From Candidatus Forterrea multitransposorum CG_2015-17_Forterrea_25_41 (GTDB lineage: Archaea > Iainarchaeota > Iainarchaeia > Iainarchaeales > CSSED10-239), in assembly GCA_009392915.1 (NCBI GenBank), contig CP045477.1:192001-256000 (forward strand): a DNA stretch of 64,000 bases, read 5' to 3'. Below the pieces are notes generated by a model. The model was not told the origin of the DNA. It worked only from the letters and a program-made list of their open reading frames with translations, and ran no database searches. Shown piece after piece: positions 4,006 through 34,301 of the stretch (position 1 is its first letter; every line of letters starts with the position of its first letter). The position numbers were made by a program, and so were the translations under genes.

Positions 4006-6414
4006 TTATTCTATATTTAAATTTAAATTTTCAGTAATAGTTTGTTCTTGATCTGTCACTGATAATGTTATTGTGTGTTCTCCAACAGACAATGTTGAAA
4101 TATTAATATCACAATTATCTAAAGAATATTGATTATTATATAGTTTTGAAACATCTTCTTGATCTATTGCTTCATCAAAAATTAAAATATCATCCATTTT
4201 ACCATTAAAAAAATGATCATAAGTTCCAACAACTCCATTATAAGCTATAGCAGCACCAATTGCAACTGGCAAGCTATTTGATATTGATCCATAAGTTCCA
4301 ATAGGAACACTAGCATCAAGAATTCCATTAATATAAAAATTTAAATCTTGGTTGTCTTTATAAGACATAATAACATTATACCAATTATTTTGAGCATATA
4401 GAGAACCACAATTACTACAACTTTTATAGTTACTTTGAGCATCATCAATACCAGAATAAATATCCCAATTACTAGAAACATTATTAATCATTAATTGCCA
4501 ACCTGCATAACTTCCTCCGGCACCTCTTCCTCTAGTATTAATTATTCTTTGATATCCAGAACCAGTAGGATTTATCCATGTTGATACAGTAATTTCATCT
4601 AAATTTGAACTAATATTATTATCTAAAGTTGCATAGCTTGAAGTTCCATTAAAACTTAATGCATTATTTTCTCTTCCAAATCTGTCTGTTGTTCTAGTTA
4701 CATTAAATAAAGTTCCGTCAATATTCCCTATATTATCATAAATAGTATCTCCTGTAGTTTCTTCAAATCTATATTCTGCATATGGTTTTTGATATGTTAA
4801 ATTTCCATCAATTGATGATGCCCAAGAACAAGAATAATTTCCTACATTATTTGTAATATTTGTATCTATTTCTATATTATCTCCTAAAGTATATACATTT
4901 GAATCAATATTTATTTCTGCATTTAAAGATGGATTTTCTACAGTTATATTTTTTGTTTCAGTAATAGTTTGTTCTTGATCGGTCACTGATAAAGTTATGG
5001 TGTGTTCTCCAACAGACAATGTTGAAATATTAATATCACAATTATTTGAAGAATATTGATTATTATATAGTTTTGAAACATCAGAACTAGAAATTCCATT
5101 ATTAAAAATAATAATATCATCTAACTTTCCATTAAAAAAATGATTAAAAGTTCCATACACTCCATTATATGCAACTGATGTCCCAATTGCTGTTGGTAAG
5201 CTGTTTGTTATATTTCCATATGGATCTAAATTTACACTTTCATCTAATTGTCCATCAACATAAAAATTAAGATTATTATCTTCATCAAAAGACATAACAA
5301 AATGATACCATTTTCCAAGTGTCAAACTATTTCCACAAGTGTTACAACCAGTAAATGGACTTGTTGAAGAATCAACTCCTGAATAAAGATAAAAATTACT
5401 AGTTGTATCATTAATTAATATTTGCCATCCTTCAACATCTGAAGCTGCAGATCCTCTTGTGTTTATAATTCTCTGATATGTACTAGATCCATTTGATAAA
5501 AACCATCCTGATATTGCAAATCTATTAAGTTCTTGACTTATATTATTATCTAATAAAACATAGCTTGAAGTTCCATTAAAGCTTAAAGCCTTATTTTCTC
5601 TTCCAAATCTATCTGTAGTTCTTGTAATGTTATATCCATTACCATCAATATTACCTATTAAATCATAAATTATATTTCCTGAAGTTTCATTAAAATCCCA
5701 TCTTGCATAAGGTGTTTTACTTGGTATTAAGTTTCCATCAATTGATGATGCCCAAGAACAAGAATAACTTCCAACAGGGTTATTTACTTCTGATGTGAAA
5801 TTAATTGGTTCTGAAAATAAGAAAGAAGTTGCTTCTATTGGATTTGAAATATCTATAGTTGTCACAGTTTCTATTGGATTTAGATTTGGTCTTTCTTTTT
5901 GAAGATTTAATTTTTCAGAAGAATCAATTTCTCTTAAAAAACTTATTTTGTTTCTACTTATTTTTTTAATATAAATAATTGTTTTTGTGTTATTAAGATA
6001 TATTCCTTGTTCTATATCTATTCCATTGATGTCTAAACCAACAATTAATTTTTCAAATTCTCTAAAAGTATAAATTTCTCCTTCTCTAATTAATTGTCCT
6101 TCTTTATAATAATTTCCAGAAATATTATGAAATATTTCTATTTTATCTAAATTAGAATCTGCTTCAAAACTTAAACCATCAAGGTCTATTACAAAAGAGA
6201 CAACAGATCCATTTGAATTTTCTAAAACTTCTTGTATTTTTCCTTGAATTTCTTCAATATACATTCTAGATTCTTCAAATTTTTGTTGTGAATTATTTCT
6301 TTCAATTGCAGGAACAACTCCTTGATAAATAAGTCCTACAACAGCAACAATAATAAATATAACTAAGATATAACTTAAAATTTCAGAAGCTCCTCTCTGA
6401 TTTAGTCTTTTCAT
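4006..6414 (-). CDS. Pilin-like (class III signal peptide) adhesin with a tandemly duplicated PKD-like + LamG module
   Basis: N-terminus: MKRLNQRG/ASEILSYILVIFIIVAVVGLIY. Two LamG-type modules: ARWDFNETSGNIIYDLIGNIDG...ALSFNGTSSYVLLD...FAISGWF and AEYRFEETTGDTIYDNIGNIDG...ALSFNGTSSYATLD...ITVSTWI. Each module is preceded by SYSCSWASSIDGNL and followed by CDINISTLSVGEHTITLSVTDQEQTIT. Confidence 0.85.
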   Translation of the reverse strand: MKRLNQRGASEILSYILVIFIIVAVVGLIYQGVVPAIERNNSQQKFEESRMYIEEIQGKIQEVLENSNGSVVSFVIDLDGLSFEADSNLDKIEIFHNISGNYYKEGQLIREGEIYTFREFEKLIVGLDINGIDIEQGIYLNNTKTIIYIKKISRNKISFLREIDSSEKLNLQKERPNLNPIETVTTIDISNPIEATSFLFSEPINFTSEVNNPVGSYSCSWASSIDGNLIPSKTPYARWDFNETSGNIIYDLIGNIDGNGYNITRTTDRFGRENKALSFNGTSSYVLLDNNISQELNRFAISGWFLSNGSSTYQRIINTRGSAASDVEGWQILINDTTSNFYLYSGVDSSTSPFTGCNTCGNSLTLGKWYHFVMSFDEDNNLNFYVDGQLDESVNLDPYGNITNSLPTAIGTSVAYNGVYGTFNHFFNGKLDDIIIFNNGISSSDVSKLYNNQYSSNNCDINISTLSVGEHTITLSVTDQEQTITETKNITVENPSLNAEINIDSNVYTLGDNIEIDTNITNNVGNYSCSWASSIDGNLTYQKPYAEYRFEETTGDTIYDNIGNIDGTLFNVTRTTDRFGRENNALSFNGTSSYATLDNNISSNLDEITVSTWINPTGSGYQRIINTRGRGAGGSYAGWQLMINNVSSNWDIYSGIDDAQSNYKSCSNCGSLYAQNNWYNVIMSYKDNQDLNFYINGILDASVPIGTYGSISNSLPVAIGAAIAYNGVVGTYDHFFNGKMDDILIFDEAIDQEDVSKLYNNQYSLDNCDINISTLSVGEHTITLSVTDQEQTITENLNLNIE
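4030..4155. repeat. 126-nt near-identical intragenic repeat, copy 1 (pairs with 4957..5082)
   Basis: Manual alignment gives 121/126 identical positions to 4957..5082. It encodes ..VSKLYNNQYS..CDINISTLSVGEHTITLSVTDQEQTIT. All five differences are synonymous on the coding strand. Confidence 0.9.
4957..5082. repeat. 126-nt near-identical intragenic repeat, copy 2 (927 nt = 309 codons from copy 1)
   Basis: See copy 1. A more diverged third copy (~55 nt, tagtttgttcttgatcagtaacagataatgttattgtatgttctccaac) lies at about 1825..1880 in the neighbouring adhesin gene. Confidence 0.9.
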
Positions 6415-6513
6415 AATTATTCTTTATTTTTAAATATATTTTACTAATATATTATATATGAAATCTTTATAAACATATTTAATCTATATTATATATACAA
6501 TACAAAATATTGT

Positions 6514-6586
6514 GGTCCGAATAGTGTAGTGGTTAGCATATGGGTCTGTGGATCCCATGACTCGGGTTCGAATCCCGGTTCGGACC
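6514..6586 (+). tRNA. tRNA-His (GUG) with genome-encoded G-1
   Basis: Manual cloverleaf. Acceptor GUCCGAA/UUCGGAC, with an extra 5' G (6514) pairing with discriminator C73. Anticodon loop CUGUGGA. T-arm UCGGG-UUCGAAU-CCCGG. It is a GC-rich island in AT-rich sequence. Confidence 0.9.
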
Positions 6587-6727
6587 CTCTTTATTCTTTT
6601 AAATTGTTTTAAAAATTATTTTTTCTATTTTTTTAAAAATATTTTTATATGTTTTGCCATTCATTTGTTTTTTTAAAAAAACAATCTATTTTTAAATCAT
6701 ATGATTTACTATATTTTTAAAATATAA

Positions 6728-6734
6728 AGGTGAT
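6728..6734 (+). promoter_or_regulatory. Shine-Dalgarno-like motif (AGGTGAT) 5 nt upstream of the rbcL ATG
   Basis: It matches the GGAGGUGAUC-type anti-SD complement. Similar GGTG/GGAGG motifs precede many genes here (8956, 10176, 33111, 35364, 36374, 40842, 49474, 63925). Confidence 0.5.
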
Positions 6735-6739
6735 ATATA

Positions 6740-8188
6740 ATGCACGAAGATCTTTTTAACACCCTAAACCCACATCAAAAAGCATATATTAATTTTGAAA
6801 TTCCAAATGTTAAAAATGGAGAATATATGTTATGTGCTTTCCATTTAAGACCTGGAGGAGATTTAAATATCTTACAAGCAGCTTGTGAAACAGCAGCTGA
6901 ATCTTCAACTGGTACAAATTTTTTAGTAAACACAGAAACTCCTTTTGCAAGAGAGATGAATGCTTTAGTTTATAAATTAGATTTAGAAAAAAGTTTAGTA
7001 TGGATAGCATATCCTTGGAGACTTTTTGATAGAGGAGGAAATGTTCAAAATATCTTAACATACATTGTAGGAAATGTTTTAGGTATGAAAGAAGTTTCTG
7101 CAATTAAACTTTTAGATGTTTGGTTTCCACCAGCTATGCTTGAACAATACGATGGACCTTCCTATACTTTAGATGATATGAGAAAATATTTAGATGTTTA
7201 TGATAGACCAATTTTAGGAACAATTATAAAACCAAAAATGGGTTTAACTTCAGCAGAATATGCAGAAGCATGCTATGATTTCTGGGTTGGTGGAGGAGAT
7301 TTTGTTAAAAATGATGAACCTCAAGCAAACCAAGATTTCTGTCCATATGATAAAATGGTAAAACATGTAAAAGAAGCTATGGATAAAGCTGTAAAAGAAA
7401 CTGGTCATAAAAAAGTACATTCTTTCAATGTTTCAGCTGCAGATTATGATACAATGATTGAAAGATGTGAAATGATTGTTAATGCAGGTTTTGAAAAAGG
7501 ATCTTATGCATTTTTAATAGATGGAACTACTGCAGGTTGGATGGCAGTTCAAACTTTAAGACGTAAATATCCTGATGTTTTCCTTCATTTCCATAGAGCA
7601 GGACATGGAGCATATACAAGACCTGAAAATCCAATTGGTTTTTCTGTTTTAGTATTATCTAAATTTGCAAGACTTGCAGGAGCTTCTGGTATTCATACAG
7701 GAACTGCAGGTGTAGGAAAAATGGCAGGTACTCCAACAGAAGATATTACAGCTGCAACTGGTATTTTAAAATTAGTCTCAGAAGGACATATTTTCCATCA
7801 ATCATGGTCAACTGTTCCTGAAAAAGATTTAGATGTTGTAAAGCTTGCACAAGAGGATGAAGCTCATCATGTTATCTTAGAAGATGATAGTTGGAGAGGT
7901 CTTAAAAAATGTACTCCAATAATCTCTGGTGGTCTAAATCCAACTCTTCTTAAACCATTTATTGATTTAATGGGTGGAGTTGATTTTATAACAACTATGG
8001 GTGCTGGTTGTCATGCTCATCCAAAAGGTACACAAGCAGGCGCTAAGGCTTTAGTTCAAGCATGTGAAGCATACCAGAAAGGAATTTCTATTGAAGAATA
8101 TTCAAAAGATAGACCTGAGCTTGCAGAAGCTATTGAGTTTTTTACAAAGAAAAAGCATGTTGATAACTTAAAGAAGGAGTTTTCTTAA
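6740..8188 (+). CDS. rbcL: Ribulose-1,5-bisphosphate carboxylase/oxygenase large subunit, form II/III
   Basis: Form II-type active-site motifs: TIIKPKMGL, GGGDFVKNDEPQANQ, FHRAGHGA, SGIHTGT, TPIISGG. There is also a ~29-aa insertion (STVPEKDLDVVKLAQEDEAHHVILEDDSWRGLK) where form II has a short GGMKA-like segment. Confidence 0.95.
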   Translation: MHEDLFNTLNPHQKAYINFEIPNVKNGEYMLCAFHLRPGGDLNILQAACETAAESSTGTNFLVNTETPFAREMNALVYKLDLEKSLVWIAYPWRLFDRGGNVQNILTYIVGNVLGMKEVSAIKLLDVWFPPAMLEQYDGPSYTLDDMRKYLDVYDRPILGTIIKPKMGLTSAEYAEACYDFWVGGGDFVKNDEPQANQDFCPYDKMVKHVKEAMDKAVKETGHKKVHSFNVSAADYDTMIERCEMIVNAGFEKGSYAFLIDGTTAGWMAVQTLRRKYPDVFLHFHRAGHGAYTRPENPIGFSVLVLSKFARLAGASGIHTGTAGVGKMAGTPTEDITAATGILKLVSEGHIFHQSWSTVPEKDLDVVKLAQEDEAHHVILEDDSWRGLKKCTPIISGGLNPTLLKPFIDLMGGVDFITTMGAGCHAHPKGTQAGAKALVQACEAYQKGISIEEYSKDRPELAEAIEFFTKKKHVDNLKKEFS

Positions 8189-8247
8189 ATTAATTTTTTT
8201 AAGAAAATCTTTTTCTTTTTTTCTTTGTTTTTTGGACAAGAGGTTTT

Positions 8248-8844
8248 GTGTTTATGCAGATAGATAAAAGTAAAATTTATTTTGAAACAGATCGTTTAAT
8301 AATAAGATTATTAAAGCCATCTGATGCTTCTGATATTTTTGAAAATTATAAGGATAAAGTATATTCTAAAAATATACCTAATCTTCCTTATCCTTATACT
8401 TTAAAACATGCAAATGATTTTATTAAAAAAAATAAATCTAAAATTAATAGAAAAAAAGATCCTGGAATTGAGTTTGCAATTTTTTCAAAAGAAGAAAATC
8501 GAGTTATTGGTGGTGCTTCTTTAAACCATATTGATTTTAAAAATAAAAAATGTGAAAGCGCTTCTTGTCTTTCAAAAAAATATTGGGGTAAAAAATATAT
8601 TTATGAAGCAAAGCTTGAAATCTATAAATATGCTTTCAATATTTTAAAATTAAATAAAATTTATGCTGATGTTTTTACTTATAATTTAAGAAGTAAAAAG
8701 CATTTAGAAAAGTTAGGTTTTAAGGAAGTCGGGCTTAAAAGAAAAGATATCTTCCATAAAAATAAGTTTATAGATCTTTACAGGCTTGATCTTTTAAAAG
8801 AGGAATTTAAGTATAAAGATTTAAAGAAAAATCTTCTTTCTTAA
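8248..8844 (+). CDS. GNAT family N-acetyltransferase (RimJ/RimL-like)
   Basis: FETDRLIIRLLKPSDASDIFENY is the typical RimJ-type N-terminus. Later motifs: GGASL..IDFKNKKCE, YWGKKY, and LKLNKIYADVFTYNLRSKKHLEKLGF. The start is either GTG 8248 or ATG 8254. Confidence 0.75.
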   Translation: MFMQIDKSKIYFETDRLIIRLLKPSDASDIFENYKDKVYSKNIPNLPYPYTLKHANDFIKKNKSKINRKKDPGIEFAIFSKEENRVIGGASLNHIDFKNKKCESASCLSKKYWGKKYIYEAKLEIYKYAFNILKLNKIYADVFTYNLRSKKHLEKLGFKEVGLKRKDIFHKNKFIDLYRLDLLKEEFKYKDLKKNLLS

Positions 8845-8967
8845 TTTTTTTTTAATTTTTTAGAAAAATTTAAAAACTTTTCTAGAAAATATTTTTATTT
8901 TTTTTGTTACATTATATATTTATTAACAAAAACTATTTTTAAAAAAACAAAAAAAGGTGGTGTAACT

Positions 8968-9447
8968 ATGAAAAAATATACTATCTGGGATGAAATGAGA
9001 AGAATGCAAAGAGAGATGGATTCTTTATTTGATGACTTTGTTTATTCTCAAAAACCATATCTTCTTTCAGGTTCTAAAAAAGATGAAAATTCTTTAACTT
9101 CTTTAGAAAACTATAGAGAACCAGTTTGTGATGTTAAAGAAGATAATGATAAATATAATCTTTCTTTAGAAATTCCTGGTTCAAAAAAAGAAGATATTAA
9201 AATAAATGTAAATGATAACAACTTAGAAATAAAGGTTGAACATAAAAGTGAAGAAAAAAAAGAGGATAAAGAAAAAGGTTACTATAGCTATTCAAAAAGT
9301 TATTCTGGCTTTTATAGATCCTTCTCTCTTCCAAGAAATATAGATAAGGATAACATAGATGCAGAGTACAAGGATGGTGTCTTACATCTTAAACTTCCAA
9401 AAAAAGAAATATCTTCTTCTTTAAACAAGTTAATAGAGGTTAAATAA
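8968..9447 (+). CDS. hsp20: Small heat-shock protein, Hsp20/alpha-crystallin family
   Basis: Alpha-crystallin domain: PVCDVKEDNDKYNLSLEIPGSKKEDIKINVNDNNLEIKVEHK...FYRSFSLPRNIDKDNIDAEYKDGVLHLKLPKK. A strong SD (GGTGGTG, 8956..8962) precedes it. Confidence 0.9.
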   Translation: MKKYTIWDEMRRMQREMDSLFDDFVYSQKPYLLSGSKKDENSLTSLENYREPVCDVKEDNDKYNLSLEIPGSKKEDIKINVNDNNLEIKVEHKSEEKKEDKEKGYYSYSKSYSGFYRSFSLPRNIDKDNIDAEYKDGVLHLKLPKKEISSSLNKLIEVK

Positions 9448-9460
9448 TTTTTTTAACCTC
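9436..9460. terminator. 8-bp inverted repeat hairpin between convergent genes
   Basis: GAGGTTAA (9436..9443) and TTAACCTC (9453..9460) flank a 9-nt loop. The hairpin overlaps the hsp20 stop and is followed by a T-run. Function is inferred. Confidence 0.4.
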
Positions 9461-9462
9461 TT

Positions 9463-10002
9463 TTATTCTTTAAGTAAATAATAAATATCTTTATCTAAGA
9501 TTAAGTTATTTACTTTTCCTAATTTTTCTTTTTTAATAATACCATTTTCTTCAAGTTTTAAAATTAGTCTATGAACTTTAATCTTTGATAACCCATCAAT
9601 ATATGTAAGTTCATATTGCCTTACTTTTCCATCATTTTCTAATATCTTTTCAATAATCTTTTTTTCATCTTTAGTTAAAAGATTAAGTATGGTTTTACTC
9701 TTAACATTAATATTTTTTTCTTTTTGATTAATTTCTTCAGATAAAAGATAGTAGATAAGTAACCCTACAAACATTCCAAAGAATGCACTAATAGGTATTA
9801 GATAAAAAGAATAATTTGATTTTTCTGGTTTATTTAACATCTGTTCTTTAAGTTCATCTATAGTATAAAGATCTATTGTTGTAATATCAATAGTATTCTG
9901 ACTTCTATTTATCTTTTGTTGTGCAGATAAAAATAAAAGAGTTGAAACTATTAATAATATAAAAGATAATAAGACAGCTAAGATAATTATTTTTTTGTTC
10001 AT
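9463..10002 (-). CDS. Membrane-anchored winged-helix DNA-binding protein
   Basis: Two hydrophobic helices (IIILAVLLSFILLIVSTLLFL and ISAFFGMFVGLLIYYLL) are followed by a wHTH-like C-terminus, LTKDEKKIIEKILENDGKVRQYELTYIDGLSKIKVHRLILKLEENGIIKKEKLGK. Confidence 0.6.
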   Translation of the reverse strand: MNKKIIILAVLLSFILLIVSTLLFLSAQQKINRSQNTIDITTIDLYTIDELKEQMLNKPEKSNYSFYLIPISAFFGMFVGLLIYYLLSEEINQKEKNINVKSKTILNLLTKDEKKIIEKILENDGKVRQYELTYIDGLSKIKVHRLILKLEENGIIKKEKLGKVNNLILDKDIYYLLKE

Positions 10003-10178
10003 AATAGATATATTGTTCTTTTCTGTTTTTATTCTTTATTGTTTATATATAGTTTCAGTTAATCAAACCATAGTTTCATAAAAGAGTATATATCGTTACA
10101 CTTATAATTATCTAGTACTTTAAAGGGTTTTTTTAAAAGTTTGTTAAAAACTTTTTAAAGTAAAATTAAAAAAAAAAG

Positions 10179-10613
10179 GTGAAAAAAAATATGAATAATA
10201 AAACAAAAATAATTGCCTCTATCCTTACATTGTTTAGTTTTCTTTTAGTTTTAGGAACAGTAAGTGCATACAGAGGAGATGTAACAAAGCTAGGTCCAAA
10301 CTACGATCCTGTAGTACATGCAAATATGCAATTTGCAATTGAAGCTGGAGATTATCAAGCTTGGAATGATATTGTTTCTTTAAGAGATAATAATTCAAAG
10401 ATAACTACATATATAACAGAAGAAAACTTTGAAGAATACAGTAAAGCATACCTTTCTGCTTTATCAGGAGATTCATCTTCTTTACAAGAGTTTAGAGCTT
10501 CTTTAGGTTTAGGCCAAGGTAATCAATATAGAGGATCTAATAAAGGTTCTTTAAATGAAAACTCTAATTCTTTAGGTCAAAAGAAAATGAATAGATACAA
10601 CTCTACAAATTAG
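10179..10613 (+). CDS. Small secreted protein of unknown function
   Basis: Signal-peptide-like KTKIIASILTLFSFLLVLGTVSAYRG. The likely true start is ATG 10191, 9 nt after the SD AAGGTGA. No recognisable domain. Confidence 0.55.
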   Translation: MKKNMNNKTKIIASILTLFSFLLVLGTVSAYRGDVTKLGPNYDPVVHANMQFAIEAGDYQAWNDIVSLRDNNSKITTYITEENFEEYSKAYLSALSGDSSSLQEFRASLGLGQGNQYRGSNKGSLNENSNSLGQKKMNRYNSTN

Positions 10614-10766
10614 TTTTTTTTAATAGGTTATAAAAATTAATTAAGATTATTTATTTAATCTTTTTTTCTTTTATAAGTTCTTTTTTTAAATGTATTTATG
10701 CTTAATTATATTATTAGTTTATAATTCTATTTTTCTTTTAAGAAGAATATTTTATATGAATTTTTG

Positions 10767-10838
10767 CTTCTGTGGCTCAGTGGTAGAGCGCAACCTTGGT
10801 AAGGTTGAGGTCGCGGGTTCGACTCCCGCCAGAAGCTT
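10767..10838 (+). tRNA. tRNA-Thr (GGU)
   Basis: Canonical cloverleaf: GCUUCUG UG GCUC AGUGGUA GAGC G CAACC UUGGUAA GGUUG AGGUC GCGGG UUCGACU CCCGC CAGAAGC U. Confidence 0.92.
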
Positions 10839-10840
10839 GA

Positions 10841-10867
10841 TGCACAAAAATAACTAATTTGTGCATT
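10841..10867. repeat. Perfect 9-bp inverted repeat immediately 3' of tRNA-Thr
   Basis: ATGCACAAA (10841..10849) and TTTGTGCAT (10859..10867) flank a 9-nt loop. It could be a tRNA terminator or a recombination or binding site at a possible element boundary. Confidence 0.4.
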
Positions 10868-10995
10868 TGAAATATACTTTTTAATCTTTAATTATACCAA
10901 ATTATATGCATTTATAAATAGATTATAACGGACTTATAATCTTTTAGTAAAAGACTATATTTAAAAACATTTCTGTTATATATTATATTAGTGAT

Positions 10996-12267
10996 TTGTA
11001 TATGGATAAAGATTTTTTAAGAAATGTTATTACTGATCAATATGAAGATCTAAAAGATGTTTCTAAAACGGTTTTAAGATATGATTTAAAAGAAATAACA
11101 TCTTTTGTAGAAAATCCTGCAATTTCAATAATTTCAGGAATTAGAAGATGTGGAAAATCAACTTTTTTAGAACAAATAATTAACCTACATTATAAAGATG
11201 ATTTTTATTATTTTGATTTTTCAGATGAAAGAATTTCAAGATTTCAAACAGAAGATTTTCAAAAACTATATGAAGTATTTTTAGAAAAATTTGGAAAAAG
11301 AAAAGCATTTTTCTTTGATGAGATACAAGAAGTTCCAGATTGGAATAAATTCGTAAATAGAATGAATAAAATAGGCTATAAATGTTTTGTTACTGGTTCA
11401 AACTCAAATTTATTAAGCAAAGAATTATCCACATACCTTACAGGAAGACATATAGATAAAGTTTTATTTCCATTTTCTTTTAAAGAATATTTAGTATATA
11501 AAAATATAAATATTGACTTAGATTCTACAAAATCAAAAACCTTAATTATTAAAGAATTTAAAAATTATTTTAAATTAGGGGGTTTTCCAGAAGTTGTTTT
11601 AACAAATGACACTTCAATTTTATTAAATATTTATTCAGATATTATTTCAAAAGACATTATTGAAAGATTTAAAATAAATGATATTTCTCTATTTAAAGAA
11701 TTTTGTAATTATGTTATATCTTTATCTACAAATGAATTTACTTATAAATCATTAAAAGATAATTTTAAAATTCAAAATATAACTACTGTTTCAAATTATC
11801 TTGATTATTTAAAACTTACATATCTTGTTTATGAAGTTAAAAGATTTTCTCCTGCTTTACAGAAATTAAATAAATTTCCAAAAAAATATTATTGTATTGA
11901 TAATGGGTTATTAAATAAAGTTGGTTTTGGATATTCAATAGAAGAGAGTAGATTTTTAGAAAATCAAGTTTTTATTGAACTTTGGAGAAACAATTTAAAT
12001 TCTGAAATTTATTATTATAGAAATAAAGATAATAAAGAATGTGATTTTTTAGTATTAAATAACAGAAAAGTTGCTAAAGCTATTCAAGTTTGTTATGCTT
12101 TTAAAAAAGCAGAAACAAGAAATAGAGAAATTGAAGGTTTATTATCTGCTTTAAAAGAATTTAATTTGTCTTTTGGAGAAATTATAACCTTTGAACATAA
12201 AGAAAGATTAGAAATTGAGGGTAAAATTATAGAAATGATTCCTATCTATGAGTGGTTATTAAAATAA
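10996..12267 (+). CDS. AAA+ ATPase with C-terminal DUF4143-type domain (COG1373 family)
   Basis: Walker A: ISGIRRCGKSTFLEQ. Walker B: AFFFDEIQEVPDW. The FVTGSNSNLLSKELSTYLTGR block and the C-terminal ...ECDFLV... restriction-endonuclease-like fold motif are typical of this family. The probable start is ATG 11002. Confidence 0.85.
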   Translation: MYMDKDFLRNVITDQYEDLKDVSKTVLRYDLKEITSFVENPAISIISGIRRCGKSTFLEQIINLHYKDDFYYFDFSDERISRFQTEDFQKLYEVFLEKFGKRKAFFFDEIQEVPDWNKFVNRMNKIGYKCFVTGSNSNLLSKELSTYLTGRHIDKVLFPFSFKEYLVYKNINIDLDSTKSKTLIIKEFKNYFKLGGFPEVVLTNDTSILLNIYSDIISKDIIERFKINDISLFKEFCNYVISLSTNEFTYKSLKDNFKIQNITTVSNYLDYLKLTYLVYEVKRFSPALQKLNKFPKKYYCIDNGLLNKVGFGYSIEESRFLENQVFIELWRNNLNSEIYYYRNKDNKECDFLVLNNRKVAKAIQVCYAFKKAETRNREIEGLLSALKEFNLSFGEIITFEHKERLEIEGKIIEMIPIYEWLLK

Positions 12268-12272
12268 AAAAT

Positions 12273-12311
12273 GAGCGCTTTTAACCTAAGGTTTAGTTCC
12301 TGCCAGAAGCT
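12273..12311 (+). pseudogene. Degraded partial copy of tRNA-Thr (D-arm 3' side to acceptor 3' end)
   Basis: The fragment gagcgc-ttttaacct-aaggtt-tag-ttcctgccagaagct aligns with tRNA-Thr gagcgc-aacctt(ggt)aaggtt-gag...ctcccgccagaagct. There is an exact 11-nt match, gccagaagctt, at both sites (10829..10839 and 12302..12312). The anticodon loop and most of the T-arm are deleted. Confidence 0.55.
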
Positions 12312-12313
12312 TT

Positions 12314-12379
12314 GAACCGGTTTCGCTCGGTTCACGCGCAATCTTTAAAAGAGCTGGTTTCGATCAGTTAACACGCAAT
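12314..12379. repeat. Two tandem 29-nt GC-rich hairpin motifs (period 37 nt)
   Basis: R1 (12314..12342) is gaaccggtttcgctcggttcacgcgcaat. R2 (12351..12379) is gagctggtttcgatcagttaacacgcaat. They share 23/29 identical positions. A stem C-G pair in R1 is replaced by T-A in R2, a compensatory change. Confidence 0.6.
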
Positions 12380-12402
12380 GGTTCTTCTTTTTCTTCTAGA
12401 AA

Positions 12403-13170
12403 TTAAGCTTTTCTGAACAATAAAAATCCAATTGTAATTAAAAATAAAGCAATACAAATAGATGCAGCAGTAATTATTTCAGGATATTGATTATTAAAAC
12501 CAACAGAACTTGTATGCTTAATAATAATCCCAAAATATGCCCACGCAAAAACTAAAATATAAGCAATATCTCTATTTCTAACACTGGTTAAAATACCAAT
12601 AATAGAACCTACTAAAAGAATAGCAATTGTCCAAATACTTTCACTAATACCAAAACCATTCCATCCAACACTAACAAGAAAAGCTGTAATATTTGCAATT
12701 GTTGCAACTGTTATCCATCCAAAGTAAATACTAAATGGAAGGGATAAAAAGAAAAAATCTTTAGACTTATTTTCTCTTATTAGTAAATTAATTTTAATTA
12801 AACAAAATAATATACCTAGCATAAAGATTATAGATACCCATAATAAACCATAATGCCAAGAAAAGATCCATAATGCATTAGCTACAGAACTTATAATAAA
12901 ATAAATACTTATCTTGTTTAATAATTTATTTTCTTTTAAACTAATTTTTTTAAAAGTTTCAAATTGATATAAAACAAATAAACCTAATAACAAATAAATT
13001 ATACCCCAGATAGAAAAAGTAATTCCTGCAGGAGCAAATAAGTTAGGATATAGGTCAGAGACAGCCCCTGTATCAATGTTATTTATTGGCAGGGCATTAG
13101 CTAAATAATTAACTACAATCATTACTATATAGACTAATGCTACAAAAATTTTTCTTAATATAAAATTCAT
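12403..13170 (-). CDS. Polytopic membrane protein, TspO/MBR-related (tryptophan-rich sensory protein-like)
   Basis: The N-terminal block NYLANALPINNIDTGAVSDLYPNLFAPAGITFSIWGIIYLLLG and Trp-rich helices (WIFSWHYGLLW, YFGWITVATIAN) match my recollection of long TspO-like proteins. The family assignment is uncertain. Confidence 0.5.
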   Translation of the reverse strand: MNFILRKIFVALVYIVMIVVNYLANALPINNIDTGAVSDLYPNLFAPAGITFSIWGIIYLLLGLFVLYQFETFKKISLKENKLLNKISIYFIISSVANALWIFSWHYGLLWVSIIFMLGILFCLIKINLLIRENKSKDFFFLSLPFSIYFGWITVATIANITAFLVSVGWNGFGISESIWTIAILLVGSIIGILTSVRNRDIAYILVFAWAYFGIIIKHTSSVGFNNQYPEIITAASICIALFLITIGFLLFRKA

Positions 13171-13316
13171 AATTATTTCTTAAACCAAAACATATTTATA
13201 TGTTATTTCTTAAATATTTTTTTAAAATTAATCTACAAATATTTTTTAACTTAAGTTTTTAGCTAAAATTTTAATAATTAATATTTTTTAAAAATACATC
13301 TCTATTTATATTTTTT

Positions 13317-13784
13317 TTGTTTTATTTCTTAATTATGGCAACAAATAAAGCTGTAAAAGCAATAATCTTTAATAAAGATAATCAAATGTTAATTTTAAAA
13401 AGAACTCCTCTTTATAAAAGAAAAGGCAAAATTAATGTTTTAAAAAAATATGCACATTTAGATAAAAAAAATATATATGATCTCCCTGGTGGAAGACTTG
13501 AAATAAATGAAACTATCAAAACTGGCCTTAAAAGAGAAGTTTTTGAAGAAACAGGACTTAAAATTAAAATCTTAAAAAAAGTAAGTTCTTGGGAATTTAT
13601 TTCTTTAGATAATAAAAAAGTAGAAGTGACTAATTTTCTTTGTGAAATTAAAAAGAATACTTCAAATAAAATAATTTTAAGTCAAGAACATGATAATTAT
13701 AAATGGGTTGATCTTAAAAATATTAAAAGATATAGTTTTAAAGATAAAAGTTTTTTTGATTCTTTAAAATTTTTATCTAAATAA
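13317..13784 (+). CDS. NUDIX hydrolase
   Basis: Nudix box: GGRLEINETIKTGLKREVFEETGL (G-x5-E-x7-REUxEExGU). The likely start is ATG 13335 (MATNKAVKAIIF). Confidence 0.85.
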   Translation: MFYFLIMATNKAVKAIIFNKDNQMLILKRTPLYKRKGKINVLKKYAHLDKKNIYDLPGGRLEINETIKTGLKREVFEETGLKIKILKKVSSWEFISLDNKKVEVTNFLCEIKKNTSNKIILSQEHDNYKWVDLKNIKRYSFKDKSFFDSLKFLSK

Positions 13785-34108: not shown

Positions 34109-34301
34109 GGGGACATGGGGTAGCCAGGTTAACCTTACAGGCTCCAGATATTTTTTAAATTAGAAAGTAATCTGGAACGCAGGATGTTTTTTTTTAAAAA
34201 AAACAGATGATTGATATTATACAGGTTTGTTTAATTTTATATTTATATAAAATTGAAATAGGAGAAACCTGTAGACCCGGGTTCGAATCCCGGTGTCCCC
34301 A
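34109..34301 (+). tRNA. tRNA-Trp (CCA) interrupted by a ~119-nt intron at the canonical 37/38 position
   Basis: The 5' exon is GGGGACA UG GGGU AGCCAGGUUA ACCU U ACAGG CUCCAG(A). The 3' exon is (A) CCUGU AGAC CCGGG UUCGAAU CCCGG UGUCCCC A. The two halves are separated by AT-rich sequence. Confidence 0.85.
34148..34266 (+). other. tRNA-Trp intron (boundaries ambiguous by 1 nt: 34148..34266 or 34149..34267)
   Basis: The exon halves only form an anticodon stem (ACAGG/CCUGU) after this segment is removed. The intron segment aatctgga is complementary to the anticodon-loop region tccagat, as expected for helix formation around a bulge-helix-bulge site. Confidence 0.75.

What the first reader, a model, noticed from the sequence alone, without database searches (positions are those of the whole stretch)
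10767..12312. Intact tRNA-Thr and a degraded tRNA-Thr 3' copy bracket a single COG1373 ATPase gene: possible relic of a tRNA-targeted integration
Seen in sequence: the 3' end of tRNA-Thr (..ctcccgccagaagctt, to 10839) recurs 1.46 kb downstream as ..ttcctgccagaagctt (to 12312). Upstream similarity extends through gagcgc / aacct / aaggtt blocks, i.e. a decayed copy of about two thirds of the tRNA. The bracketed segment starts with a perfect 9-bp inverted repeat (10841..10867) and contains only the DUF4143-type AAA+ ATPase. Established: integrative elements that target tRNA genes leave a direct repeat of the tRNA 3' part at the distal junction. No integrase is present, so if this is an element it is a remnant. 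An exact GC-rich 11-mer match is unlikely by chance in such AT-rich DNA (rough expectation below 0.05 for the window).
Basis: partly seen in the sequence, partly recalled or inferred. Interest (0 to 1): 0.6.

Follow-up and report, generated by a model that had tools for sequence, protein, structure and literature searches.

The report
Gene cassette inserted at tRNA-Thr
A 1.57-kb piece of foreign DNA carrying one candidate anti-virus ATPase gene is inserted right after a threonine tRNA gene of a tiny DPANN archaeon; a relative has the site empty, and the "degraded tRNA copy" at its end is a conserved repeat that ends many such cassettes in related genomes.

Summary

- **Repeat.** tRNA-Thr(GGU) lies at 10766-10837. 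Its 3' end recurs at 12298-12312 with 14 of 15 bases identical.
- **Empty site.** A close relative (L032) has tRNA-Thr followed 6 nt later by the TspO-like gene. Window 10839-12408 is therefore an insertion that starts exactly at the tRNA 3' end.
- **Other occupants.** Other relatives carry, at the same tRNA, elements with a self-splitting SSV-type ("suicidal") integrase. In L031 these have perfect 48-nt att repeats.
- **The second copy is not random decay.** Window 12268-12312 belongs to a conserved ~45-nt motif, GAGCGC-TTTT-MAC..GGTT...TTCC.GCCAGAAGCTT. A profile built from 10 copies in other contigs hits it at E = 2e-15.
- **Cassette arrays.** The motif ends small, co-oriented, integrase-less cassettes carrying ATPases, HicAB, NYN, Fic, a deaminase and surface proteins. 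The arrays start at tRNA-Thr.
- **The ATPase.** It matches PADLOC candidate defence family PDC-S01 and is under purifying selection, so it is live cargo, not a relic.
- **Not shown.** How the cassettes move is inferred. My best guess is an integrase acting in trans.

The general mechanism is known; the motif-bounded cassette arrays look like a new variant. Interest is moderate.

The parts
10766..10837 (+). tRNA-Thr(GGU), intact. It is the attachment site (attB/attL) of the island.
   Evidence: ARAGORN; Rfam tRNA 74.2 bits. The same tRNA is followed by integrase elements in L002-L004, L027 and L031 and by an empty site in L032.
10816..10838 (+). Core repeat, copy 1: T-loop to 3' end of the tRNA, GGTTCGACTCCCGCCAGAAGCTT.
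   Evidence: Hit by positions 24-46 of the motif HMM, E 6e-5. Homology with L004 and L032 ends at 10838/10839.
10839..12408 (+). The whole inserted segment relative to the empty site (1570 nt).
   Evidence: blastn of L032 (reverse strand) against the window: 1-572 = 10264-10838 (95%) and 579-1396 = 12409-13227 (91%), with only 6 nt between the blocks in L032.
10840..10866 (.). Perfect 9-bp inverted repeat, ATGCACAAA N9 TTTGTGCAT, at the left end of the cassette.
   Evidence: Read. The same hairpin directly follows ..GAAGCTT in L014 and is present in L015-L018. Function not tested.
10940..10968 (+). Conserved palindrome TCTTTTAGTAAAAGA plus an A/T-rich TATA-like box: the likely operator and promoter of the ATPase gene.
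   Evidence: Read. Related palindromes lie upstream of the orthologs in L005, L011, L013, L014, L015 and L019. The role is inferred.
11002..12267 (+). AAA_14 + DUF4143 ATPase (COG1373 type, 421 aa; Walker A GIRRCGKS at residues 46-53). This is the cargo gene.
   Evidence: Pfam AAA_14 8.8e-36 and DUF4143 2.4e-22. PADLOC PDC-S01 5.2e-105. dN/dS 0.09-0.14 against close orthologs; no stops; same length in all.
12268..12312 (+). Cassette-end motif AAAATGAGCGCTTTTAACCTAAGGTTTAGTTCCTGCCAGAAGCTT. Its last 23 nt (12290-12312) are core repeat copy 2.
   Evidence: the repeat finder D10 and D18. HMM from 10 copies in other contigs, E 2.3e-15. Homologous copies in L019-L026 and L031.
12313..12346 (+). Hairpin element, copy 1: TGAACCGGTTTCGCTCGGTTCACGCGCAATCTTT.
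   Evidence: the repeat finder D1; unique to this place in the window. The same element follows motif copies in L021 and L022. 8-bp stem with 2 compensatory pairs. Absent from the empty site.
12351..12383 (+). Hairpin element, copy 2: GAGCTGGTTTCGATCAGTTAACACGCAATGGTT.
12384..12411 (+). Decayed, core-like distal end (..CTTCTAGAAATTAAGCTT). It abuts and overlaps the last codons of the TspO-like gene and is probably the oldest att scar.
   Evidence: Alignment of the right junction with L032. The similarity is weak, so this part is inferred.
12403..13170 (-). TspO/MBR-like membrane protein gene: the host flank on the right.
   Evidence: ORF. The same right-hand flank, next to the Beta_propel gene, is seen in L027, L030 and L032. 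Sources name homologs tryptophan-rich sensory protein.

Best explanation
Window 10839-12408 is DNA integrated at the 3' end of the tRNA-Thr(GGU) gene of an Iainarchaeota (DPANN) archaeon.

**Content of the insert**
- A left-end hairpin.
- The ATPase gene's own operator and promoter.
- An intact AAA_14/DUF4143 ATPase of the PADLOC PDC-S01 type: an AAA+ ATPase fused to a predicted PD-(D/E)XK nuclease, and a candidate single-gene anti-virus system.
- A ~45-nt terminal motif.
- A gene-less stub of two hairpin elements and an older scar.

**The terminal motif**
It derives from the 3' two thirds of a tRNA-Thr: GAGCGC, a TTTT insertion, AACC, an internal deletion, then the 23-nt T-loop to 3' end. It serves as the right-hand attachment scar (attR-like).

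**Proposed mechanism (inferred)**
- A tyrosine recombinase of the SSV-type 'suicidal' family (PF16795) recombines a circular form of the cassette with the tRNA 3' end. In relatives this family integrates whole elements into this very tRNA.
- The integrase is supplied in trans by a co-resident or incoming element.
- Each new integration restores the tRNA and pushes earlier units downstream. This builds the arrays seen in relatives.

**Shown:** the insertion, its exact left boundary, the empty site, the alternative occupants, the motif family, cassette modularity with breaks in the core, and selection on the ATPase.
**Inferred:** that the 45-nt motif is itself a working recombination site, that the integrase acts in trans, and that the ATPase defends against viruses.
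For: - **Empty site.** L032 has tRNA-Thr, then 6 nt, then the TspO-like gene. Its flanks are 95% and 91% identical to the window.
- **Left boundary.** L004 is 95% identical to window 5888-10839, diverges at 10839/10840 and carries an integrase ORF instead.
- **Full element at the same tRNA.** L031 has tRNA-Thr, then Int(C), then 9.1 kb, then Int(N) reading through a perfect 48-nt copy of the tRNA 3' part. Motif-bounded HicAB, 111-aa and NYN cassettes follow.
- **Split integrase.** The integrase ORFs of L002 and L003 are open through the tRNA 3' half with no start codon, and all 75 homologs but one carry PF16795.
- **Same cassette at another tRNA-Thr.** L019 has tRNA-Thr(CGU), an ATPase (84% identical in protein), the motif, two small ORFs, the motif again and a second ATPase. 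Three 28-nt copies of the tRNA end are 93-100% identical.
- **Motif family.** Copies in L020-L026 close cassettes holding Fic, NYN + deaminase, SDR + RibD_C, HicAB, an Lnt-like gene, surface proteins and further ATPases. Cargo is on the same strand, and the motif starts within about 12 nt of the stop codon.
- **Independent profile.** An HMM built without the window hits 12268-12312 at E 2.3e-15.
- **Modularity.** The NYN cassette is 94% identical in L031 and L021 but has different upstream neighbours, and the break lies inside the core. The window and L014 cassettes (ATPase 97% identical in protein) share homology from 10831, inside the core, up to 12285.
- **Live cargo.** PDC-S01 at 5e-105; dN/dS 0.09-0.14.
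- **Precedent.** Excision of elements with a split suicidal integrase by a related incoming integrase is documented (PMC8371274).
Against: - No integrase or integrase fragment lies in the window or in any motif-bounded cassette, so no link between motif and integrase has been demonstrated.
- The motif lacks 18-19 nt of the tRNA part that true att sites of this family keep, including the 3' half of the anticodon arm. [quoted passage not shown] The motif may therefore be non-functional for them.
- ATPase orthologs also sit at non-tRNA sites. L011 and L013 have no repeats. L005 has a perfect 99-nt direct repeat and no motif. L015-L018 use a different repeat.
- No circular form, and neither the motif nor the integrase, was found in IMG/VR.
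- The arrangement is the same in all 24 contigs read for this genome, so there is no sign of current mobility.
Confidence: 0.8

Rival explanations
1. Remnant of a full element. A complete suicidal-integrase element once integrated here. Deletions later removed Int(C), Int(N) and most cargo, leaving the ATPase and a decayed attR.
For: - Full elements with 48-nt att repeats occupy this tRNA in relatives.
- The motif can be derived from the tRNA 3' part by one deletion between GGT repeats and one TTTT insertion.
- The triplet before GAGCGC is ATG or one step from ATG in 10 of 11 distinct copies. That would fit a decayed start codon.
Against: - The same indel pattern recurs in about 20 copies with unrelated cargo, so it was inherited as a unit and not produced locally.
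- Cassettes as small as about 565 nt (HicAB) have clean motif boundaries.
- tblastn finds no integrase fragment in any cassette.
- The ATPase cassette has the same left end to the base in the window and in L014.
Confidence: 0.25
2. Integrase-independent shuffling. The 40-45-nt motifs and the tRNA 3' end act only as short homologies. Cassettes loop out and re-enter by host homologous recombination, or by the low-specificity recombination described for some archaeal integrases.
For: - Motif copies within an array are near-identical direct repeats.
- L005-L010 show a perfect 99-nt direct repeat of local sequence around the ATPase ortholog at a non-tRNA site. That looks like a single-crossover (Campbell-type) product.
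Against: - Breakpoints fall at the same few bases of the core in independent comparisons.
- 23 nt is short for RadA-dependent recombination.
Confidence: 0.15
3. The motif works as RNA. It would be a tRNA-like 3' UTR element or terminator placed after cargo genes, and its resemblance to tRNA-Thr would serve RNA processing rather than DNA recombination.
For: - The motif always lies on the cargo strand, a few bases after the stop codon.
- The neighbouring hairpin element keeps its stem through compensatory changes.
Against: - The motif has no stable fold: z-scores -0.02, -0.38 and 0.40 against shuffles.
- It lacks the 5' strand of the T stem, so no T arm can form.
- No Rfam match at E up to 10.
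- Homology between arrays breaks inside it, and it marks an insertion boundary against an empty site.
Confidence: 0.08
4. The ATPase moves itself. The AAA+/PD-(D/E)XK protein would be the mobility enzyme of a one-gene element that makes long target duplications.
For: - Orthologs at 67-97% protein identity sit in at least 7 different genomic contexts.
- Two are bracketed by direct repeats of local sequence: the window and L005 (99 nt, perfect).
- An ATPase is the last gene before the motif at about 7 of the 19 or so boundaries examined.
Against: - Cassettes without any ATPase have the same boundaries.
- L011 and L013 show no repeats.
- No transposase-like chemistry is known for this family.
- The family is classed as a defence candidate (PMC12988326).
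Confidence: 0.05
5. Chance similarity: a GC-rich 11-mer recurring by accident.
For: The ungapped 15-mer alone reaches only p of about 0.08 window-wide.
Against: plus the homologous motifs in relatives.
Confidence: 0.01

Closest known systems
Integrated elements with SSV-type 'suicidal' integrases (SSV1, pTN3, pT26-2, TKV elements; Pfam PF16795) in archaeal tRNA genes
   Same: - Integration at the 3' part of a tRNA gene, with a direct repeat of that part at the far end and tandem occupancy of one tRNA.
- In the relatives L031, L027 and L002-L004 the integrase gene is split by integration, exactly as in this family (PMC8371274).
   Different: - The window unit has no integrase halves.
- Its repeat is a 45-nt internally deleted derivative, not the 48-nt perfect tRNA copy.
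- It is only 1.5 kb and carries one gene.
- The host is a 25% G+C DPANN archaeon. The 2021 review does not mention DPANN at all (0 occurrences).
Integrons and CALINs (clusters of attC sites), including those reported in Archaea (PMC9668308)
   Same: Arrays of small, co-oriented, mostly one- or two-gene cassettes, each closed by a conserved repeat right after the stop codon. Cargo is rich in toxin-antitoxin and accessory genes. Most arrays have no integrase next to them.
   Different: - The repeat is not an attC. It has no long imperfect palindrome and no stable single-strand fold. Its 3' half is a tRNA-Thr 3' end.
- The array is anchored at a tRNA gene, not at an attI next to intI.
- The ATPase cassette brings its own promoter.
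- The only recombinases seen nearby are of the SSV type, not IntI.
Tandem genomic islands and tRNA gene fragments left by integrative elements in prokaryotes
   Same: One intact tRNA followed by one or more partial 3' copies that mark the ends of successive insertions.
   Different: Here the partial copy is a stereotyped, shared derivative carried by many unrelated cassettes. It is not a set of independent exact duplicates.
PADLOC candidate defence system PDC-S01 (AAA ATPase + PD-(D/E)XK; COG1373)
   Same: Near full-length match at 5.2e-105. Same two-domain make-up. Reported as very common and enriched in Archaea (PMC12988326).
   Different: [quoted passage not shown] Here the gene is seen as the cargo of a defined, tRNA-targeted cassette.

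Membership tests
Site-specifically integrated element at a tRNA gene | Intact tRNA gene at one junction | tested here: met
   tRNA-Thr(GGU) at 10766-10837; ARAGORN and Rfam 74 bits.
Site-specifically integrated element at a tRNA gene | Direct repeat of the tRNA 3' part at the distal junction | tested here: met
   12290-12312 against 10816-10838: 19 of 23 bases identical by hand count of the sequence, with the last 15 nt at 14/15. Motif HMM E 2.3e-15. The repeat is imperfect and internally deleted.
Site-specifically integrated element at a tRNA gene | Empty site in a related genome | tested here: met
   L032 has the tRNA-Thr and the TspO-like gene 6 nt apart. Flanks are 95% and 91% identical to the window.
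Site-specifically integrated element at a tRNA gene | Integrase gene inside the element | tested here: not met
   tblastn with 75 integrase homologs finds only the tRNA-encoded peptide in the window. Pfam on the single ORF gives an ATPase.
SSV-type suicidal-integrase element (PF16795) | int gene split into Int(C) next to the tRNA and Int(N) reading into the distal att copy | tested here: not met
   Absent in the window. Present in the relatives L031, L027, L002-L004 and L025.
SSV-type suicidal-integrase element (PF16795) | att repeat covering the tRNA from the anticodon arm to the 3' end | tested here: not met
   The window motif lacks 18-19 nt of this stretch. L031 has the full 48 nt.
Integron / CALIN | attC sites: imperfect palindromes (R''-L''...L'-R') that fold as single strands | tested here: not met
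   The motif folds no better than shuffles (z -0.02, -0.38). Only a 4-6 bp AACC/GGTT hairpin is present. No dedicated attC model was run.
Integron / CALIN | Array of at least 2 repeats less than 4 kb apart bounding co-oriented cassettes | tested here: inconclusive
   Met in the relatives L019, L021, L022, L026 and L031. The window has one full motif plus a decayed one.
Integron / CALIN | IntI-type integrase with its specific extra domain | not tested
   No IntI was seen in any locus read. No dedicated search was made.
PADLOC PDC-S01 / COG1373 ATPase | Match to the family profile over its full length, with AAA_14 + DUF4143 domains | tested here: met
   PDLC04787 at 5.2e-105, residues 24-421. 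Pfam domains.
PADLOC PDC-S01 / COG1373 ATPase | Protection against viruses | not testable with these tools
tRNA gene or pseudogene (for 12268-12312) | Cloverleaf recognised by tRNA models | tested here: not met
   No ARAGORN call and no Rfam tRNA hit at E up to 10. The 5' strand of the T stem and most of the anticodon arm are missing.

The most novel reading that the evidence does not exclude
Iainarchaeota (DPANN) genomes may carry a tRNA-anchored, integron-like gene-capture platform.

- The 3' end of tRNA-Thr would act as the entry site.
- A stereotyped 40-45-nt, internally deleted derivative of tRNA-Thr, often followed by a conserved hairpin element, would be the cassette-borne recombination site.
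- Suicidal SSV-type integrases of passing elements would supply the enzyme in trans.

Small defence, toxin-antitoxin and surface-protein cassettes would then be collected, reordered and exchanged without carrying an integrase themselves. The window would hold a one-cassette instance.
Probability: 0.3. Interest if true: 0.75.

Novelty: new variant of a known kind. Interest (0 to 1): 0.5.

Why it matters
- **A clean case in a hard group.** DPANN archaea have very small genomes and few described mobile elements. This is a documented integration hot spot with an empty site, a cassette-occupied state and integrase-occupied states of the same tRNA.
- **Wider host range for suicidal integrases.** The family best studied in hyperthermophiles operates in these 25% G+C DPANN archaea.
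- **A route for accessory genes.** Defence and toxin-antitoxin genes in these genomes travel as small cassettes closed by a shared tRNA-derived repeat. If that repeat is a working site, it is an integron-like solution built from different parts.
- **A tractable context for PDC-S01.** It also offers a handle on how the very common but untested PDC-S01 ATPases spread.
- **Annotation.** The 45-nt motif is a usable marker for finding such islands.

Tried and rejected
- **First alignment of the second copy.** I read it as a 13-nt deletion of the T arm. Copies in L019 showed that the last 23 nt align without gaps, so I dropped it.
- **Known RNA families.** Rfam at E up to 10 finds nothing at 12268-12400.
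- **Viruses and plasmids in IMG/VR.** No motif match and no relative of the integrase.
- **The ATG in AAAATGAGCGC as the start of a very short Int(N).** The frame differs from the integrase frames seen in L002/L003 and P0122. L019 copies have an in-frame stop. No Int(C) follows any core. Not supported, but the ATG-like triplet remains unexplained.
- **attC-like folding of the motif.** None found.
- **Origin of the L015-L018 repeat in tRNA-Thr(UGU).** The acceptor stem does not match.
- **Relics in relatives.** No remnant of the ATPase in L027 or L030, and no second ATPase copy in the window.
- **Exact look-up of the 423-aa ORF.** Not on record, because the gene callers start at the ATG two codons later.
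- **NCBIfam and PDB sequence searches for the ATPase.** No hits.
Full report
**1. What is in the window**

The window is 25% G+C. It matches a 663-kb JGI metagenome contig (L001). The closest GTDB genomes are Candidatus Iainarchaeum MAGs, which are DPANN archaea.

ARAGORN and Rfam place tRNA-Thr(GGU) at 10766-10837. Its last bases, TCCCGCCAGAAGCTT (10824-10838), recur as TCCTGCCAGAAGCTT at 12298-12312 on the same strand. Between the two copies lie three features:
- a perfect 9-bp inverted repeat (10840-10848 / 10858-10866);
- a palindrome plus a TATA-like box (10940-10968);
- one ORF (11002-12267) with Pfam AAA_14 and DUF4143 domains.

**2. Is the repeat more than chance?**

- CCAGAAGCTT occurs only at these two places, where shuffles expect 0.05 matches.
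- The ungapped 15-mer alone is not compelling: 8% of whole-window shuffles reach its score.
- The gapped alignment back to GAGCGC scores 37. That is above all 150 shuffles (maximum 36), and only true tRNAs score as high elsewhere in the window.

On sequence statistics alone the case would be suggestive. The comparative data settle it.

**3. Empty site and alternative occupants**

- *Empty site.* L032, a contig from a close relative, carries the same upstream 144-aa gene and tRNA-Thr (95% identical to window 10264-10838). Six nucleotides later comes the TspO-like gene (91% identical to window 12409-13227). Window 10839-12408 (1570 nt) is therefore an insertion that begins exactly after the tRNA 3' end.
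- *L004.* It is 95% identical to window 5888-10839. It diverges at 10839/10840 into an integrase-like ORF.
- *L027 (sister species).* The interval between tRNA-Thr and the TspO-like gene holds Int(C), a methyltransferase and small ORFs. A decayed 5' half of the motif lies next to the TspO-like gene.
- *L031.* It shows the full pattern: tRNA-Thr, then Int(C), then 9.1 kb of cargo, then Int(N) reading through a perfect 48-nt copy of the tRNA 3' part. Small cassettes follow, each closed by the motif.

The integrase ORFs are open through the tRNA 3' half and lack a start codon there. All 75 homologs but one carry PF16795, and many gene calls begin inside a tRNA. These are SSV-type 'suicidal' integrases, whose att site lies inside their own gene (PMC8371274).

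**4. The 'degraded copy' is a conserved motif**

The closest ATPase next to a tRNA is in L019. Its layout is tRNA-Thr(CGU), an ATPase (84% identical in protein), GAAAAGCGATTTTCACTAAAGGTTCAATTCCCGCCAGAAGCTT, two small ORFs, AAAATGAGCGCTTTTCACTAAAGGTTCAATTCCCGCCAGAAGCTT, and then a second AAA_14/DUF4143 ATPase.

A metagenome scan with a degenerate pattern found seven more contigs, several with 2-4 copies. The flanking GAGCGC was not part of the search pattern, yet it is conserved in most copies. An HMM built from 10 copies outside the window hits the window only at 12268-12312 (E 2.3e-15) and at the tRNA 3' end (E 6e-5).

The last 23 nt of the motif equal the T-loop, T-stem 3' strand and acceptor 3' strand of tRNA-Thr. 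The part before them can be derived from the tRNA by a TTTT insertion after GAGCGC and an 18-19-nt deletion between GGT repeats (by inspection). The same indels occur everywhere. The motif was therefore inherited as a unit, not produced by local decay.

**5. Cassette arrays**

The motif closes co-oriented units, starting within about 12 nt of the stop codon. Cargo seen:
- Fic;
- NYN + deaminase;
- NYN;
- SDR + RibD_C;
- HicAB (a unit of only about 565 nt);
- an Lnt-like gene;
- PadR to ABC transporter to ATPase;
- giant surface proteins;
- a GNAT acetyltransferase (in the L015 array, which uses the different repeat described in section 10);
- several further AAA_14/DUF4143 ATPases.

In L021 the last motif borders housekeeping genes.

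Modularity is direct. The NYN cassette is 94% identical in L031 and L021 but has different upstream neighbours, and the homology break lies inside the core. The window and L014 cassettes (ATPase 97% identical in protein) share sequence from 10831, inside the core, through the identical left hairpin, to 12285.

None of these cassettes contains an integrase fragment. L025 begins with a genuine Int(N) + 47-nt att scar and continues with motif-bounded cassettes. Both kinds of unit therefore share one array.

**6. The hairpin element**

TGARCYGGTTTCGCTCRGTTNACRCGCAATGGTT follows motif copies in L021 and L022 as it does in the window. In 'long variants' it sits between the motif's 5' half and its core (L021, L014, L030, L031). 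Its 8-bp stem is kept by two compensatory pairs. It is absent from the empty site, so it is element DNA and not the native tRNA trailer. Its role is unknown.

**7. The cargo gene**

The ATPase matches PADLOC PDC-S01 at 5.2e-105. PDC-S01 is a candidate single-gene defence system: an ATPase fused to a PD-(D/E)XK domain. It is very common and enriched in Archaea, and the 2026 survey says validation is pending for most such candidates (PMC12988326).

All seven orthologs compared are 421 codons long without stops. dN/dS is 0.09-0.14 among the close ones, and Walker A is intact. The gene is functional cargo.

Orthologs at 67-97% protein identity sit in at least seven different contexts. The gene is therefore frequently relocated.

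**8. Mechanism**

*Shown:*
- insertion at the tRNA 3' end;
- alternative occupants of the same site;
- a shared tRNA-derived end motif;
- breakpoints in its core.

*Inferred:*
- Cassettes are integrated, and perhaps excised, by a suicidal integrase supplied in trans. This is known for split-integrase elements (PMC8371274).
- Each new integration restores the tRNA and displaces older units downstream.

*Main weaknesses:*
- The motif lacks part of the tRNA stretch (including the 3' half of the anticodon arm) that genuine att sites of this family retain.
- No circular form was seen, and neither the motif nor a relative of the integrase was found in IMG/VR.
- The arrangement is the same in all 24 contigs read for this genome.

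*Rivals:* a worn-down full element, homology-driven shuffling, an RNA role for the motif, and self-mobility of the ATPase. They are weighed in the rival list. Chance is excluded.

**9. Comparison and novelty**

tRNA-targeted integration with a 3' repeat is textbook, and SSV-type integrases are well described. What I did not find in the held literature is twofold:
- this family in DPANN archaea (the 2021 review does not mention DPANN);
- arrays of integrase-less cassettes closed by a stereotyped, truncated tRNA-derived repeat.

The arrays resemble integrons in layout (PMC9668308), but the repeat is not an attC and the anchor is a tRNA. I rate this a new variant of a known kind. The window itself holds only a one-cassette instance, so interest is moderate.

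**10. Loose ends**

- The perfect 99-nt direct repeat around the ATPase ortholog in L005-L010, next to a diversity-generating retroelement.
- The different repeat family in L015-L018.
- The ATG-like triplet before GAGCGC.
- The function of the hairpin element.

Noticed in passing
window 34113-34300 (+): Probable intron-containing tRNA-Trp(CCA) missed by ARAGORN and Rfam. Acceptor GGGGACA/TGTCCCC, T arm CCGGG-TTCGAAT-CCCGG, anticodon loop CTCCAGA, then an AT-rich insert of about 125 nt that holds a C-box-like CAGATGATTGA.
   Followed up: partly
L005 5729-5827 and 7278-7376 (same in L006-L010): In a related genome the ATPase ortholog (87% identical in protein) is bracketed by a perfect 99-nt direct repeat of local sequence. 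It sits between a diversity-generating retroelement (bAvd + RVT_1) and a HicAB pair, with no tRNA and no motif. The mechanism is unexplained.
   Followed up: partly
L015 5493-5521, 5862-5890, 7278-7306, 7898-7926 (same in L016-L018): A second family of cassette-end repeats, TTTTCACTTTAGGGYAAGAAYGC.TCCTCTGGAGCT. It shares the 5' half (GAGC.TTTTCAC) with the tRNA-Thr-type motif but has a different 3' half. It bounds NYN, ATPase and GNAT cassettes near radA.
   Followed up: partly
window 12313-12383; L021 9772-9803 and 10506-10539; L022 3527-3560 and 7347-7377: A conserved 29-34-nt hairpin element. Its stem is kept by compensatory changes, and it is always next to or inside the cassette-end motif. 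Function unknown.
   Followed up: partly
window 13228-13779 (NUDIX gene 13317-13784): The NUDIX hydrolase gene between the TspO-like and Beta_propel genes is absent in L032 and L027. A second small indel therefore lies 0.8 kb from the tRNA-Thr island.
   Followed up: no
window 12403-13170 (-): The TspO/MBR-like membrane protein has homologs at about 60% identity in Firmicutes, Patescibacteria and Woesearchaeota. This suggests cross-domain transfer of the gene. Its last codons overlap the decayed att-like AAGCTT.
   Followed up: no
P0122, P0126, P0132, P0139, P0141 (integrase homologs): Many public gene calls for these integrases start inside a tRNA gene, for example MVERNLGKVEVAGSIPARSL. The tRNA 3' half is read in different frames in different integrases. 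So split Int(C) halves are being annotated as whole proteins, and several different tRNAs are targeted.
   Followed up: no
window 6740-8188 (+): A RuBisCO large-subunit homolog (482 aa) lies 2.6 kb upstream of the tRNA-Thr. It is conserved in synteny in L027.
   Followed up: no
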